Shown here: positions 1 through 48,000 of the stretch, piece after piece
Layout of the letters: every line of letters begins with the position of its first letter
Position numbering within the stretch: the first letter of the stretch is position 1
Source: Mizuhopecten yessoensis
Lineage: Eukaryota
Direction of reading: 5' to 3'
Length of the DNA stretch: 64,000 bases
NCBI RefSeq assembly: GCF_002113885.1
Contig: NW_018479853.1
Coordinates: 1 to 64,000 of the forward strand
Program-made: the position numbers

Positions 1-3000
1 TTCAGTTATTTTATTTGTACAAACAAGACACATCTTTTTTTAAAAATTAACAATTAGATATAGATGTTGCATGTTATATTATTAGCTTTTTGGTATTGTA
101 CAATGACAGTTGAAATTCATTTGAAAATATTCATAATTTGTTGTTAATTCCACCCTAAAATACGTTAATACTATCTGTCCTAACAACACACACATTTGTT
201 AATTCTACCTGTCCTAACAAGACACAAATATGATAATTCTACCTGTCCTCACAACACACAAATATCATAATTTTACCTGTCCTAACAGGACACATATTTG
301 TTCATTCTACCTGTCCTAACAAGACACAAATAGGATAATTCTACCTGTCCTTACAACACACAAATATCATATTTTTACCTGTCCTAACAAGACACATATT
401 TGTTGATTCTACCTGTCCTAACAAGACACAAATATCATAATTCTACCTGTCCTAACAACACAAATATGTTAATTCTACCTGTCCTAACAAGACACATATT
501 TGTTGATTCTACCTGTCCTAACAAGACACAAATATCATAATTCTACCTGTCCTAACAACACACATGTTTGTTAATTCTACCTGTCCTAACAAGACACAAA
601 TATGTTAATTCTACCTGTTCTAACAACTTAAATATTTGTTAATTCTACCTGTCCTAACAACACACAAATATCATAATTCTACCTGTCCTAACAACACACA
701 AATATGTTAATTCTACCTGTCCTAAACATTCCGTTTTTCTTATGATGAATTCTGCAATTGTCTGCAAACTAAGGCAGGTGTGAAGATGTGATGGCTTCTA
801 CAGTTTAATTATATCTCGTGGTGTTGCTCCACGTATTTCTGGTACAGCACTGAGTGATAGTTAAACAATTGTATCTTTTGCAAATGATTTGGTATCATTT
901 CATTCTCATAGTTTGGAAAAATTCATGTGTTTATAATATGTGTGTATATGCTGTCAACCATCTTTAGGTTATATGGCCCGTATGGGCAGAGGGGAAATAG
1001 AGGAAAAAATATAAAATGTTGTACAAATTAAAGGATATAAACCAAATTTGTTCTAGAGCATCTTTTAATTTGGACAAAGGGGACTCAAGTTTGCATAAAG
1101 ATAGGGTGTTGATGGTTTTTTTTTTATATACTTTTGACAAACAATTGGCAATATGAATTTCAACAAATCTTTCATAAGTGCCCTATAGTAATCACAGTGT
1201 CTGTCTGTATGTCTGCCTGTCCGTCAGCAATTTTGTTTCCGGAGATTATCTCGGGACTCCAAAAGGCCGAACTTAAACTTCACGTAGTGATACAGTGTGA
1301 TACATATAGATGTGCAAAGAACCAGGAGTTTCACAATTTAATCAGGTCAAAGTCAAGGTCGCTGTTTCTAAAAAATGAACAGTTGGACTATACTGTCAAA
1401 AACACATTATATGACCCTCAAAAGGCCAGATTTTGGAGAACGTTTTGTATGACATAATGAAGCAAAGTTGGTCATAATCAAACAAGAAGTCTACTTACCA
1501 AAGGTCAAGGTCATCGGGTCAAAGGTTAATTATAACATGTTTGTCTTAACTTGTGAACATTTTGTTATAACATTATGAAGCAAATTTGGTAATAATTAAT
1601 TCGGGGTCTGCGTATGCAATTAGTAATCATGATGTCTATCTATCCTCTGTCCGTCTGTCCTTCCGTTTGTCTGTTATCACAGAATTACATTCCAAGATGT
1701 CTGTCACATAATTACCTTCCAAGATGTCTATCATATAATTACCTGCCAAGATGTCAGTCACAGAATTACCTGCTAAGATGTCAGTCACAGAATTACCTGC
1801 CAAGATGTCAGTCACAAAATTACCTGCCAGCAAGGATGTCAGTTACAGAATTACCTGCCAGCCAAGATGTCAGTCACATAATTACCTACCAAGATGTCAG
1901 TACTGAATTACCTGCCTGCCAAGATGTTAGTCACATAACTACCTGCCAGCCAAGATGTCTGTCACAGAATTACCTGCCAAGATGTCAGTCACAGAATTAC
2001 CTGCCAAGATGTCAGTCACAGAATTACAGGCCAAGATTTCAGTCACAGAATTACCTGCCAGCCAAGATGTCAGTCACAGAAATACCTGCCAAGATATCAC
2101 TCACAGAATTACCTGCCAAGATGTCAGTCACAGAATTACCTGCCAAGATGAAAAATTGAAGTTCAATGGGTTGGAAGCTGTTCCAAACGCGGTGTTGAAT
2201 GTGACGGTGTCGGTGTCATTGAAAACGTAGGATTCTTCTCTGACCAAGGAACACTGACTACAAAGAAATAAAGAGTGTGATATTAACTTAGGTACAATAT
2301 TTCTATTAATAAAATACAACGTCATGCAATATAGCTGTTACAAAAAAAATAGTTTTCTATTTTTAACCTGATATCGTGAAAATCTTACTTTTCCGTTTAG
2401 ATACATTTTATTGTATAGAATATATTTTGATATACAGTTCATGTTATAAAGAAAATTAATAAGATATCCGATATTAAGATATTACATATCTGTCATGAGA
2501 TATCGTTCATATTACACATGTATATGGAATATCTAATAAAGTGTATGTCTCATTATCATATTATATATGATATAGAAAATAGCTGATGTAATAAAGGAGA
2601 TATAATCAGCATTAACATTGCTCCTTGCAATTTGGGTAAATTTGACATGCAACGGTGTCGTTGACATCAAATGGAAATGTTCCTGAAATGTTTGTGTCTA
2701 CCTGGATGCCGGCTGCTGGTTCAGACAGATGAGAAATTGTGGGTCGCACTGGTTTCTACGACAGTTTGTCATAAGGAAGTGATCACAGCACTGTCCAGAG
2801 GCAAGCTGCTGAGTGGGGTTGTCATAAGCCAGAAGTCTCAATACCCCCGTCCCTCCTGGACAGACAGCCTGCGGATATCAGATACTTATAATTAAATACA
2901 TTTTATATACATTGAAAGGACGTTTGAAATAAAATATCATTTGTCGATATTAACGGTGTTACAAACTGTTGGTGGAAACAGTTGATATGCGCCCCTTTAA

Positions 3001-45000: not shown

Positions 45001-48000
45001 AAGTAAGTCCTAAATTCTGAAGGGGGTTCCCACATGGGTCACCTCTTACGGTTACGATACATGCGGTGGGTAACAGTAGGCTATTCTTTTCTCAATCCCC
45101 GACCTGCAGGTGTGTAGAGTTTGGTACCAAACAGTCATTATTAAATGTGCTTACACACAGAAACAATTAATAATAACCAAACGTATAGTAAAATGATTCC
45201 AAAAAATCTATAATGAGCTTACATACAGATGAGATGCACCAATAAACCATTACAAGGCAAACATACAATAGATAGTCACCAATTAACCCTAACAAGGCAA
45301 ACATACAATAGAGACTCACCATCAACCATTACAAGGCAAACATACAATAGATAGTCACCAATTAACCATTACAAGGCAAACATACAATAGAGAGTCACCA
45401 ATTAACTATTACAAGGCAAACATACAATAGATAGTCACCAATTAACTATTACAAGGTAAACATACAATAGATGGTCACCAATTAACCATTACAACGTAAA
45501 CATACAATAGATAGTCACCAATTAACTATTACAAGGCAAACATACAATAGATAGTCACCAATTAATCATTACAAGGCAAACATACAAATATAGAGTCACC
45601 AATTAACCATTACAAGGCAAACATACAATAGATAGTCACCAATTAACCATTACAAGGCAAACATACAAATATAGAGAGTCACCAATTAACCATAACAAGG
45701 CAAACATACAATAGATAGTCACCAATTAACCATTACAAGGCAAACATACAAATATAGAGTCACCAATTAACTATTACAAGGTAAACATACAATAGAGAGT
45801 CACCAATTAACCATTACAAGGCAAACATACAAATATAGATAGTCACCAATCTACCATTACAATGCAAACATACAAATAGAGAGTCACCATCAATCATTAC
45901 AAGGCAAACATACAATAGATAGTCACCAATTAACTATTACAAGGTAACCTTACAATAGAGAGTCACCAATTAACCCTAGCAAGGCAAACATACAATAGAT
46001 AGTCACCAATTAACCCTTACAAGGCAAACATACAATAGAGACTCACCATCAACCATTACGAGGCATACATACAGATGAGATGCACCAATAAACCATTACA
46101 AGGCAAACATACAATAGATAGTCGCCAATTAACCATTACAAGGCAAACATACAATAGAGAGTCACCAATTAACCCTAGCAAGGCAAACATACAATAGATA
46201 GTCACCAATTAACCATTACAAGGCAAACATACAATAGATAGTCACCAATCAACTATTACAAGGTAAACATACAATAGATAGTCACCAATTAACCATTACA
46301 ATGCAAACATCCAATAGAGAGTCACCAATTAACCCTAGCAAGGCAAACATACAATAGATAGTCACCAATGTACCATTACAAGGCAAACATACAATAGAGA
46401 CTCACCATCAACCATTACGAGGCAAACATACAAATATAGAGTCATCAATTAATGTTACACCAAACATACAAATAAGTCACCATTTTTCTAGACATTTTCT
46501 TCAAGTTGGTAAGTATGGATTATGAAAAGTTCCTTTTCACACAACCAATAAGATTTTCTGTGACGTTTCGATGACTAATACGATATGTACTCTGTCATCT
46601 TCATCAGACAAATTACCGGTGAAGACAAATTGATGTCGATTCGACTACGCTGGTAGTGTATGTACAATAGTTGTTATATATGTTCCAAAATGACTCGATT
46701 AAGCTAAACTCTCATAGGCTCTCGCACATCTATCACCAAGTATTAAACAAAGGGCAGCTAAATCGAGTCATTTCGGAACATATATAACAACTATTGTACA
46801 TACGCTACCAGCGTAGTCGAATCGACATCAATTTGTCTTCACTGGTAATTTGTCTGATGAAGGTGACAAGGTACATATCGTACTAGTCATCCAAACGTCA
46901 CATAGAAAATTGTATTGGTTGTAAAAAAGAACTTTTCATAATAAATAAGTCACCAATTGATCATTACAAGACAAACATACAAAGAGAGGTTTCGATTTAT
47001 CGACAAACAAGTAGAAATAATTATTAATCACAGAAAAATTACTCAGGTTTTCACTTACCTTGCTGATTCCGTATATTAAGTGAAAGATAAAGCACCAACC
47101 CATCTCAACAGCTCTTACGTTAGATAAGACGAACACAGGAACACATTTATAGTTAGCGTATGTCAACGATTCCAAGGGCAGTGCTCAGAGCTACAAATGT
47201 AAAACTGTTTCTGATAAAGGAACGATCTGCCATGTGTGACGTCGAATTGGGTTATACAAAGTGGGGTTCCCCAGCTTGTTCTATGAAGGTAAGAGATAAG
47301 AAATAATACATGTATATCTGTAGTCATCGCTTACCACTTGTGGAGTCACAATGCATAGTACTATACATACCACAAAGTAAACAACACTTTGATCCAGTAA
47401 GCATACTAAATAATAGCCACCTCCAACCATACGTACTATATCAGGAATGCTAAGAGGTCTACCTTTAATAGAACATACATGTATGTCTCTGATAAAACAT
47501 ACATGTATGTCTCTGATAAAACATACATGTATGTCTCTGATAAAACATACATGTTTCTCTTTAATAGTGCATAAATGTATGTCTTTAATAAAACATGCAG
47601 ATGCAGATTAACTTTAAAAGAATGTACGGTGATATCTTAAGTAGAACATACAGAGTGGCGTTCTACAGCAAGAAATTTCGGGAGTGTTTTGTTCTTTTGC
47701 CAACAAAATACAACGCTCGCCAAAAACGTTCGCGAAGACATTTAAACGTTAACTCACTAGAACACCAGACATGCAAGAGGGTGGGGTAATATTGGTTTTG
47801 AGTATTTAATCACCCTTGTCTTAAAACGATCATATTTGGACAAAGAAAACGAACAAAATATACGGAAAATATGAAAAAGGAAGGTCTTTTTCTGAAGAAA
47901 TATTTCTACGGTTGTTCTTTTGTCCTTCTTAATATTTTCGGAATTTTTGTTTTTACATATTTGTGTCCGTTATACAGATCCTTCGCATACAAAACACTCG

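What the first reader, a model, noticed from the sequence alone, without database searches (positions are those of the whole stretch)
2140..47430. Cluster of three divergent, minimal Notch-ligand-like paralogues
Seen: genes A, B and C lie on the same strand and share exon phases and MNNL motifs; B and C have DSL plus a single EGF. Established: canonical Delta ligands have about 6-9 EGF repeats and Serrate/Jagged more. The paralogues are highly diverged, which points to an old lineage-specific expansion that may act as Notch modulators or decoys, or in non-Notch recognition (inference).
Basis: partly seen in the sequence, partly recalled or inferred. Interest (0 to 1): 0.68.

Follow-up and report, generated by a model that had tools for sequence, protein, structure and literature searches.

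The report
Three mini Notch-ligand-like scallop genes
Three neighbouring scallop genes encode stripped-down relatives of the Delta/Jagged signalling proteins with only one EGF repeat, two of them anchored on a sugar-coated stalk and one secreted, and whether they still talk to Notch is untested.

Summary
The window is from the scallop Mizuhopecten yessoensis. It carries three minus-strand paralogues of the DSL (Delta/Serrate/LAG-2) ligand family, with matching intron phases.

- **Gene B:** ten mapped exons, 584 codons. It has a C2/MNNL domain, a DSL domain and one EGF, then a Ser/Thr-rich stalk, a membrane anchor and a short tail.
- **Gene C:** seven exons, 237 codons, intact. It ends just after its single EGF, so it is probably secreted. 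Pfam misses its N-terminus, but the Pecten orthologue folds as a Jagged/Delta-type C2-DSL-EGF head.
- **Gene A:** it only appears to lack DSL and EGF because the window cuts it after its second MNNL exon. Its orthologues have the same one-EGF, stalk and anchor plan.

No extra EGF exons were found. None of the three sits inside the canonical 9-EGF or 17-EGF clade. All three have orthologues in other scallop genera, so the split is old.

Their DSL loop is shorter and lacks most of the Jagged1 Notch-binding face, and they have no DOS motif. Function is therefore inferred: probably Notch ligands, cis-modulators or a soluble competitor, possibly something unrelated to Notch. DSL expansion in bivalves is already published, and this body plan is a new variant. 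Gene B's signal-peptide exon was not found.

The parts
3167..3214 (-). Gene A, exon 0: start codon and signal peptide (16 codons), donor GTGAGT, ends in phase 0
   Evidence: Read. tblastn of the Pecten orthologue P0003, residues 1-17, matches here.
2702..2868 (-). Gene A, MNNL exon 1 (167 nt, ends in phase 2)
   Evidence: Pfam MNNL 30.5 bits, E 3e-7. 76% identical to P0003. Splice sites read.
2140..2257 (-). Gene A, MNNL exon 2 (118 nt, ends in phase 0). The later exons lie beyond the start of the window.
   Evidence: tblastn of P0003 residues 72-112, 66% identical. Splice sites read. No later exons were found in 1-2139.
28153..28316 (-). Gene B, MNNL exon 1 (ends in phase 2). The annotated protein starts at the ATG at 28313.
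   Evidence: Pfam MNNL 30.3 bits. 100% identical to P0001. Boundaries.
27582..27696 (-). Gene B, MNNL exon 2 (115 nt, ends in phase 0)
   Evidence: Exact walk of P0001 along the DNA. Read.
26939..27102 (-). Gene B, MNNL exon 3 (164 nt, ends in phase 2)
26260..26381 (-). Gene B, DSL exon (122 nt, ends in phase 1)
   Evidence: Pfam DSL 29.7 bits on the frame 26186-26521. Boundaries.
25581..25706 (-). Gene B, EGF exon (126 nt, ends in phase 1), holding the first five cysteines of the single EGF
   Evidence: Pfam EGF 30.2 bits. Boundaries.
24325..24801 (-). Gene B, exon 6 (477 nt): last EGF cysteine, then the Ser/Thr-rich stalk
   Evidence: The stalk, residues 236-385 of P0001, is 21% Ser, 26% Thr and 5% Pro.
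23832..23961 (-). Gene B, exon 7: first half of a conserved juxtamembrane module of unknown family
   Evidence: No Pfam family at E <= 10.
23363..23459 (-). Gene B, exon 8: second half of the juxtamembrane module
22989..23146 (-). Gene B, exon 9: acidic/Ser linker and the transmembrane helix
   Evidence: Hydrophobic 19-residue window with mean Kyte-Doolittle score 2.67.
22381..22585 (-). Gene B, exon 10: most of the 66-residue cytoplasmic tail (6 Lys) and the TAG stop codon
47059..47103 (-). Gene C, exon 0: start codon and signal peptide (15 codons), donor GTAAGT, ends in phase 0
   Evidence: Read. tblastn of P0154 residues 1-16, 69% identical.
43861..43991 (-). Gene C, divergent MNNL/C2 exon 1 (131 nt, ends in phase 2)
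   Evidence: Similar to A's and B's exon 1 and to the orthologues (47-57% identical). Read. No Pfam hit.
42774..42849 (-). Gene C, C2 exon 2 (76 nt, ends in phase 0)
41375..41523 (-). Gene C, C2 exon 3 (149 nt, ends in phase 2)
36516..36637 (-). Gene C, DSL exon (122 nt, ends in phase 1)
   Evidence: Pfam DSL 22.3 bits, E 1.6e-4. 58-73% identical to the orthologues. Splice sites read.
34431..34556 (-). Gene C, EGF exon (126 nt, ends in phase 1)
   Evidence: Pfam EGF 24.6 bits. 77-88% identical to the orthologues. Splice sites read.
30391..30455 (-). Gene C, last exon: sixth EGF cysteine, 16 further residues and the TAA stop codon. No transmembrane segment.
   Evidence: Read. tblastn of P0124 residues 224-233, 90% identical. 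The seven exon lengths sum to 711 nt, which is 237 codons.

Best explanation
The window holds a same-strand cluster of three old paralogues of the DSL (Delta/Serrate/LAG-2) ligand family in Mizuhopecten yessoensis. Each encodes only the receptor-facing head of a Notch ligand: a C2-like MNNL domain, a DSL domain and one ordinary EGF.

A and B carry that head on a Ser/Thr-rich, presumably O-glycosylated stalk. They also have a single transmembrane helix and a short tail with several lysines. C is the head alone and is secreted.

**Shown:** the gene structures, the domain content, the fold of C's orthologue, conservation across scallop genera, and separation from the canonical Delta/Jagged clade.

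**Inferred:** the heads still dock on the EGF11-12 region of scallop Notch through the C2 and DSL surfaces. A and B would act as weak trans-ligands or cis-modulators presented far above the membrane. C would act as a diffusible competitor or co-ligand. They lack the DOS motif (EGF1-2 of canonical ligands), so they would belong to the 'DSL-only' class, like the C. elegans ligands and DLL3.
For: **Identity**
- Pfam on single exons finds MNNL, DSL and EGF.
- The annotated B protein P0001 scores MNNL 38.8 bits over profile positions 2-156 of 157, DSL 41.5 bits and one EGF stretch.
- Its best solved relatives are DLL1 4xbm (E 2.4e-33), Jagged1, DLL4, Jagged2 and fly Delta and Serrate.

**Gene C**
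- The reading frame is intact at 237 codons.
- Orthologues of 227-251 aa in Pecten, Ylistrum and Argopecten all end after the single EGF.
- The AlphaFold model of the Pecten orthologue has mean pLDDT 86.4. Its best Foldseek matches are Jagged1 4cc0 (E 5.3e-15), Jagged2, DLL4, DLL1 and fly Delta and Serrate. Generic C2 domains also match, for example cPLA2 6iej at E 2.8e-6.

**Gene A**
- Orthologues of 423-428 aa have signal peptide, MNNL, DSL, one EGF, stalk and transmembrane helix.

**Stalks and tails**
- Stalks are 42-55% Ser+Thr.
- Tails are 44-66 residues with 4-8 Lys.

**Family placement**
- In a tree of 57 head regions, B and C are sisters (SH-aLRT 90).
- A 15-row clade whose members carry 5 to 17 EGF motifs excludes A, B and C (SH-aLRT 95). 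It includes the 9-EGF and 17-EGF DOS-bearing ligands.

**DOS motif**
- The consensus of PMC2504490 (passages) matches 9 of 57 rows. All 9 are in that canonical clade, and 0 of the 8 scallop A/B/C proteins match.

**Precedent**
- C. elegans DSL-1 is a secreted ligand with one EGF (PMC3415683, passages).
- Natural secreted DSL proteins signal in C. elegans (bioRxiv 10.1101/2021.02.11.429991, abstract).
Against: - **No binding or expression data** were available here.
- **The DSL binding face is poorly kept.** The Jagged1 face that matters for Notch binding is F199, R201, R203, D205 and F207 (PMC3415683). All 9 scallop rows, including the window's C exon, have a DSL loop at least 4 residues shorter, which removes the D205/F207 stretch. 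Only 4 of 39 other rows do (47 of the 57 tree rows could be aligned, plus the window exon).
- **Individual face residues vary.** R201 is kept in B and in two of four C sequences, and is lost in A. In the HMMER alignment to Jagged1, F207 aligns with Leu in B.
- **C's C2 domain has lost most of the MNNL cysteines**.
- **A DSL ligand without DOS need not bind.** DLL3 did not bind Notch in the assays of PMC5538765 (passage).
- **Soluble ligands may not activate.** In flies and vertebrates, activation needs endocytic pulling by a membrane ligand (abstract). A soluble C should therefore not activate unless scallop Notch has a low force threshold.
- **B has no recognisable signal-peptide exon in this assembly**.
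- **The AlphaFold alignment contained canonical ligands**, which favours a ligand-like model.
Confidence: 0.55

Rival explanations
1. The heads have left the Notch pathway. They would be recognition or adhesion molecules, for example in immunity or cell-surface barrier function. In that case the C2-DSL-EGF scaffold, displayed on a mucin-like stalk or released, binds lipid or a non-Notch partner.
For: - The DSL loop is shortened, and most of the Jagged1 binding face is missing or changed.
- There is no DOS motif.
- Branches are long in the tree (A family stem 1.12, C family stem 1.27).
- C has lost the MNNL disulphide cysteines.
- C2 domains of Notch ligands bind lipid (PMC5538765, passages).
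- PMC8166818 (section 10) reports that DSL-with-EGF genes diversified rapidly in lophotrochozoans.
Against: - The overall head is kept in all three families across scallop genera. All six DSL cysteines are kept, and the DSL-EGF spacing is kept too.
- PMC5538765 notes that site 2 (DSL with EGF11) is the more variable site even among true ligands.
- Several multi-EGF ligands in the alignment also vary at these positions.
- No alternative partner is known.
Confidence: 0.3
2. One or more of the copies in this species is a decaying or non-functional gene. B would lack a signal peptide, and C's splicing would be disturbed by the large tandem arrays at its splice junctions.
For: - No clean signal-peptide exon for B lies between 28317 and 30390. 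The only hydrophobic candidate (ATG at 29692) has poor donor sites.
- An ATG at 28390 that resembles the Argopecten start is followed by TAA at codon 4.
- C's intron 5 holds 31 copies of the EGF-exon donor context and 13 copies of the last-exon acceptor context.
- The searches returned no M. yessoensis protein record for A or C.
Against: - B's ten mapped exons give 584 codons with no stop or frameshift and canonical GT-AG introns.
- C's seven exons give 237 codons, intact, with all cysteines of DSL and EGF.
- Exon identities to orthologues are far above those of the flanking introns, which do not align.
- A missed 5' exon is a common annotation gap.
Confidence: 0.1
3. They are ordinary Delta or Jagged orthologues whose further EGF exons were overlooked.
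For: Public names given by the sources: 'Protein jagged-1a', 'delta-like protein 4', 'protein serrate-like', 'delta-like protein B'.
Against: - No further EGF frame scored among the 211 frames scanned across the three gene regions.
- P0001 runs straight from its one EGF into the stalk within one exon.
- Orthologues in three other genera have the same one-EGF plan.
- A, B and C lie outside the clade of 9-EGF and 17-EGF ligands.
Confidence: 0.02

Closest known systems
Canonical Delta/DLL1/DLL4 and Serrate/Jagged ligands
   Same: An N-terminal C2-like MNNL domain, a six-cysteine DSL domain and then EGF. A and B are type I membrane proteins. The best sequence and fold matches are to their solved heads.
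   Different: One EGF instead of 5-9 (Delta) or 16 (Jagged), figures from PMC3415683. There is no DOS-type EGF1-2, and no cysteine-rich or VWC region was found by Pfam. The DSL loop is at least 4 residues shorter. A Ser/Thr-rich stalk replaces the EGF rod. Tails are only 44-66 residues.
C. elegans DSL-only ligands, especially secreted DSL-1
   Same: A DSL domain with a single EGF, no DOS motif and a secreted form, as for gene C (PMC3415683 and PMC2504490, passages).
   Different: The scallop proteins keep a full C2/MNNL domain. Common descent with the nematode genes was not tested, because no named nematode sequence was in my set. Whether scallops have DOS-only co-ligands is unknown.
Vertebrate DLL3
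   Same: A divergent DSL ligand without a DOS motif (PMC2504490). It failed to bind Notch in vitro (PMC5538765). This is a precedent for a ligand-like protein that modulates rather than activates.
   Different: From memory, DLL3 has several EGF repeats and no mucin-like stalk. It is a vertebrate paralogue and not related to these genes by orthology.
Mollusc 'Delta2' of PMC8166818
   Same: A mollusc-specific Delta paralogue without a transmembrane domain, proposed to modulate Delta1 (section 10).
   Different: The paper describes Delta2 as keeping the Delta1 domain architecture with EGF repeats and ending early. Gene C has one EGF and a degenerate C2 domain. The gene identifiers are in supplements that I could not open, so identity with any of A, B or C is unchecked.

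Membership tests
DSL (Delta/Serrate/LAG-2) ligand family | DSL domain with six conserved cysteines | tested here: met
   Pfam DSL: B exon 29.7 bits and C exon 22.3 bits (cut-off 24.2). P0001 scores 41.5 bits, C's orthologue P0124 38.8 bits, and A's orthologues 22.0-24.2 bits. All six cysteines align.
DSL (Delta/Serrate/LAG-2) ligand family | N-terminal MNNL / C2-like domain before the DSL domain | tested here: met
   Pfam MNNL for the A and B exons (30.5 and 30.3 bits) and for P0001 to P0005 (38.8-51.6 bits). For C there is no Pfam hit. However, the model of P0124 (pLDDT 86.4) matches the C2-DSL-EGF heads of Jagged and Delta, and also generic C2 domains.
DSL (Delta/Serrate/LAG-2) ligand family | Binds a Notch receptor | not testable with these tools
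   No scallop Notch sequence was at hand, so no docking job was run. The Jagged1 DSL face residues are mostly not conserved.
Canonical Delta | 5-9 EGF repeats after the DSL domain (PMC3415683) | tested here: not met
   One EGF in P0001 to P0005 and in P0124 (motif count). No further EGF exon in the window.
Canonical Delta and Jagged | DOS motif across EGF1-2 (consensus of PMC2504490) | tested here: not met
   The pattern matches 0 of 8 scallop A/B/C proteins and 9 of 57 rows overall, all 9 in the canonical clade. The pattern is strict and also misses 40 other ligands. However, a one-EGF protein cannot hold a two-EGF motif.
Serrate/Jagged | About 16 EGF repeats plus a juxtamembrane cysteine-rich region | tested here: not met
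   One EGF, and no cysteine-rich or VWC family reported by Pfam for P0001 to P0005.
Secreted DSL ligands of the C. elegans DSL-1 type | Signal peptide, DSL domain, one EGF, no transmembrane segment | tested here: met
   This holds for gene C only. It has a 15-codon hydrophobic first exon and a stop 20 codons after the EGF exon. The orthologues end 3 to 10 residues after the last EGF cysteine, leaving no room for a membrane helix. This shows likeness of plan. Descent from the nematode genes was not tested.
SEA-domain membrane mucins | SEA domain between the mucin stalk and the membrane | tested here: not met
   B's juxtamembrane stretch has no Pfam family at E <= 10. The atlas shows a SEA cluster only at score 0.82, which is a lead only. 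The model has pLDDT 63.8. Foldseek gives 0 matches at E <= 0.001 and no SEA structure among the rows listed.

The most novel reading that the evidence does not exclude
Scallops run a three-part 'mini-ligand' system. Two C2-DSL-EGF heads are held on long glycosylated stalks (A and B), and a free head (C) competes or cooperates with them. These would tune Notch without the DOS motif and, for C, without endocytic pulling. That would imply that scallop Notch, like C. elegans LIN-12/GLP-1, can be switched by low force or by soluble ligand. Bivalves would then be a second, independent case of secreted DSL signalling.
Probability: 0.15. Interest if true: 0.75.

Novelty: new variant of a known kind. 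Interest (0 to 1): 0.45.

Why it matters
Notch ligands are usually long rods of EGF repeats, and their activation mechanism depends on membrane anchorage and endocytic pulling. These scallop genes keep only the receptor-facing head. They pair it either with a mucin-like stalk or with nothing at all.

If they still engage Notch, three things follow:
- They define the smallest natural C2-DSL-EGF unit that works outside nematodes.
- They offer a natural test of how ligand height above the membrane and ligand solubility affect signalling.
- They give concrete genes to the published but undissected DSL expansion in bivalves.

If they do not engage Notch, they show the ligand head being reused for another kind of recognition.

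Tried and rejected
1. **SEA domain in B's juxtamembrane stretch.** The 'DDSVMVF' resembles, from memory, the SEA cleavage motif, and the atlas gave a SEA cluster at 0.82. But Pfam found nothing. The model was weak (pLDDT 63.8, β-α-β-β-α order). Foldseek gave only generic α/β folds with 0 matches at E <= 0.001. Rejected for now.

2. **B's signal-peptide exon.** Scans of 28317-30390 for an ATG-started hydrophobic exon with a phase-0 donor gave one candidate (ATG at 29692) with weak donors (GTTGTG, GTGCCG, GTTCCA). A second scan requiring a near-consensus donor gave none. An ATG at 28514 gives a peptide resembling C's signal peptide, but it has no GT donor before its stop. 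An ATG at 28390 meets TAA at codon 4. Unresolved.

4. **Docking a head onto Notch EGF11-13.** The only Notch receptor among my hits (P0017) is nearly identical to vertebrate NOTCH1 and may be human-like. I did not use it further, no scallop Notch was available, and no complex job was sent. Binding stays unchecked.

5. **DOS pattern.** It is specific but insensitive (9 of 57 rows), so a negative result alone means little for multi-EGF rows.

6. **Rest of the window.** I scanned 129 further frames, covering the plus strand of 10.9-21.8 kb and both strands beyond 48.3 kb. Only the EF-hand exon scored at E <= 0.001.

7. **Literature.** No paper in the searched library holds 'DSL domain', 'mucin-like', 'Notch ligand' and 'transmembrane' together. 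The searches found no description of one-EGF, stalked DSL proteins in bivalves. The supplementary gene lists of PMC8166818 could not be seen.

Full report
**Origin and method**

The window is scallop DNA. Gene B's first MNNL exon is 100% identical to the NCBI protein 'Protein jagged-1a [Mizuhopecten yessoensis]' (P0001, 584 aa).

All searches with window sequence were made exon by exon. Whole-protein searches used database proteins that the tools had returned. Exon sums below are sums of lengths only.

**Checking the observation**

I scanned 211 stop-to-stop frames with Pfam (115, 96). They cover the minus strand of the three gene regions plus nine other frames.
- MNNL scored at 2701-2877 (30.5 bits) and 28152-28319 (30.3 bits).
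- DSL scored at 26186-26521 (29.7 bits) and 36397-36651 (22.3 bits, just under the 24.2 cut-off).
- EGF scored at 25567-25872 (30.2 bits) and 34306-34623 (24.6 bits).
- No other whole EGF frame was found. Weak partial EGF hits at 33736-33936 belong to a tandem array.

All of these lie on the minus strand. Reading the splice junctions and walking P0001 along the DNA shows identical intron phases wherever the genes can be compared. The DSL exon is 122 nt and the EGF exon is 126 nt in both B and C.

**Gene B**

P0001 maps without a mismatch onto ten exons from 28313 to 22384, totalling 1752 nt or 584 codons. All introns are GT-AG and the stop codon is TAG.

Pfam on P0001 finds MNNL (profile positions 2-156 of 157), DSL and one EGF stretch. 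The EGF runs directly into a 150-residue stretch that is 47% Ser+Thr. After that come:
- about 85 residues shared only with the Argopecten orthologue and matching no family;
- a transmembrane helix;
- a 66-residue tail with six lysines.

The annotated protein begins at a methionine inside MNNL exon 1 and has no signal peptide. The Argopecten orthologue P0002 has a hydrophobic leader just before the same point. I found no convincing leader exon in the 2 kb upstream.

**Gene C**

The search returned no M. yessoensis record. The EGF exon does find orthologues in Pecten maximus (P0124, 234 aa), Ylistrum balloti (P0154, 227 aa) and Argopecten irradians (P0155, 251 aa). All of them end a few residues after the single EGF.

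Mapping them and reading the junctions gives seven exons between 47103 and 30391. Their lengths are 45, 131, 76, 149, 122, 126 and 62 nt, totalling 711 nt or 237 codons. There is no stop or frameshift and no transmembrane segment.

Its N-terminal exons lack the cysteines of MNNL and get no Pfam hit. An AlphaFold model of P0124, built on a 30-sequence alignment, has mean pLDDT 86.4. Its best matches among solved structures are:
- Jagged1 (4cc0, E 5.3e-15), then Jagged2, DLL4, DLL1 and fly Delta and Serrate;
- plain C2 domains, for example cPLA2.

The alignment included canonical ligands, which may have helped that result.

**Gene A**

Only three exons lie in the window: the signal peptide (3214-3167), MNNL exon 1 (2868-2702) and MNNL exon 2 (2257-2140).

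Orthologues in Pecten, Ylistrum and Argopecten (P0003 to P0005, 423-428 aa) show what comes next: MNNL, DSL, one calcium-binding-type EGF, a stalk of 50-55% Ser+Thr, a transmembrane helix and a 47-48-residue tail. So A's apparent lack of DSL and EGF is an edge effect.

**Arrangement**

In the direction of transcription the order is C (47103 to 30391), then B (28316 to 22381), then A (3214 to beyond position 1).

A plus-strand gene with EF-hand exons lies between B and A, at 13121-13399, 13965-14189 and 20314-20721. From memory it resembles the reticulocalbin/calumenin group.

In the other scallops the orthologues sit on contigs of the same length:
- A and C in Pecten: 60,076,705 bp.
- A and C in Ylistrum: 1,849,344 bp.
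- A, B and C in Argopecten: 51,162,219 bp.

This fits conserved linkage but does not show adjacency. A B orthologue in Pecten or Ylistrum was not returned.

**Relationships**

An exhaustive HMMER search with P0001 found 4432 proteins at E <= 0.001, of which the best 150 were listed. I added P0155 by hand, making 57 rows.

In the quick maximum-likelihood tree:
- B and C are sisters (SH-aLRT 90), with the unnamed one-EGF protein P0039 next to them (84).
- The A family is a separate long branch with no resolved position.
- A clade of 15 ligands carrying 5 to 17 EGF motifs, which includes the 9-EGF and 17-EGF ligands, excludes all three (95).
- 27 of 54 inner branches are unresolved.

Holding A+B+C together costs 2.14 log-likelihood units (p-AU 0.444). 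A single origin is therefore allowed but not shown.

By motif count, 14 of the 57 rows have one EGF: the 8 scallop proteins and 6 unnamed ones. Pfam agreed for the twelve of them that I scanned. The species of the unnamed ones could not be looked up.

**Does the head look able to bind Notch?**

PMC3415683 (passages) gives the conserved Jagged1 DSL face as F199, R201, R203, D205 and F207.

In an alignment of 47 of the 57 rows plus the window's C exon (10 rows did not fit the extraction pattern), all 9 scallop rows have a loop at least four residues shorter at this point. Only 4 of 39 other rows do: P0049, P0117, P0142 and P0104.
- R201 is kept in B and in C of Mizuhopecten and Argopecten, and is lost in A.
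- In the HMMER alignment to Jagged1, R203 to D205 fall in a gap and F207 aligns with Leu in B.

PMC5538765 (passages) notes that the DSL-EGF11 site is the more variable of the two contact sites, and that DLL3 did not bind Notch in its assays.

The DOS motif of PMC2504490 is absent from all 8 scallop proteins.

**How it most likely works**

Shown: three conserved genes that encode the ligand head alone. Two are on mucin-like stalks with short lysine-bearing tails, and one is secreted.

Inferred: they contact Notch EGF11-12 through the C2 and DSL surfaces as 'DSL-only' ligands. A and B would be weak activators or cis-modulators. C would be a soluble competitor or co-ligand.

The pulling-force model (abstract of bioRxiv 10.1101/2021.02.11.429991) predicts that C cannot activate unless scallop Notch has a low force threshold, as in C. 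elegans. I put about 0.55 on a Notch-related role and about 0.3 on a role outside the pathway.

**What stayed unchecked**

A docking test was not run. The only Notch receptor among my hits, P0017, is nearly identical to vertebrate NOTCH1 (708 bits to 6py8). It may be human-like, so I did not use it further, and no scallop Notch was at hand.

Expression could not be examined. The supplementary gene lists of PMC8166818 could not be opened, so I cannot say whether A, B or C are among that paper's 138 DSL genes or are its 'Delta2'.

**Novelty**

DSL-family expansion in lophotrochozoans, and in bivalves in particular, is published (PMC8166818: passages, section 10). The public records already carry Delta and Jagged-like names.

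I found no description of a C2-DSL head with one EGF on a Ser/Thr-rich stalk, or of a 230-250-residue secreted head with a cysteine-poor C2 domain. I rate it a new variant of a known kind, with moderate interest.

Noticed in passing
window 1677-2150; 30442-32227; 32223-34481; 36413-36582; 22152-22471: Tandem arrays start exactly at exon ends and copy the splice junction itself.
- A 27-bp array (16.9 copies) begins with the last bases of A's exon 2 plus its GT donor. There are 6 exact copies of that donor context.
- A 62-bp array (36.4 copies) repeats the last ~49 nt of C's EGF exon plus 13 nt of intron. There are 31 copies of that donor context.
- An 84-bp array (21.2 copies) repeats the acceptor and first bases of C's last exon. 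There are 13 copies.
- A 78-bp unit (2.2 copies) duplicates the end of C's DSL exon with its donor.
- 51-bp and 39-bp arrays overlap the end of B's last exon.

Of the 54 CAGGTAA words on the minus strand, 45 lie in the regions scanned around two of these arrays, 32100-34500 and 1500-2260. Whether the extra splice sites are used is unknown.
   Followed up: partly
window 28317-30390 (minus strand): Gene B has no recognisable signal-peptide exon.
- An ATG at 28390 resembles the start of the Argopecten orthologue, but TAA follows at codon 4 and it is out of frame with exon 1.
- An ATG at 28514 gives a hydrophobic peptide resembling C's leader, but there is no GT donor before its stop.
- An ATG at 29692 gives a hydrophobic 19-mer with only weak donors.
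   Followed up: partly
window 13121-20721 (plus strand); 16183-19534; 19535: An unrelated gene with EF-hand exons lies on the opposite strand between A and B (Pfam E 1.7e-5, 0.0033 and 0.002). From memory it resembles reticulocalbin/calumenin. One of its introns holds a 62-bp array of 54 copies with strong G and A skew. That array ends at the window's single N, at 19535.
   Followed up: partly
window 37378-39827 and 39828-40815: Two 32-bp satellite arrays (77.5 and 30.9 copies) in C's intron 3 have consensus units that are reverse complements of each other. They meet head to head at 39827/39828, forming a large inverted junction.
   Followed up: no
P0081 (unnamed hit, 381 aa): This record has a DSL domain and one EGF, followed by a second MNNL stretch (two MNNL stretches in all, Pfam). 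It looks like a gene model that fuses two neighbouring mini-ligand genes. That would mean tandem clusters of such genes exist in another, unidentified genome.
   Followed up: no
window 63141-64000 (minus strand); 59742-60071 (plus strand): Weak traces only. There is a reverse-transcriptase-like frame at the window's end (RVT_1, E 0.018) next to a 185-residue open frame. There is also a PAN-like frame (E 0.006, below the cut-off). Neither passed E <= 0.001.
   Followed up: partly
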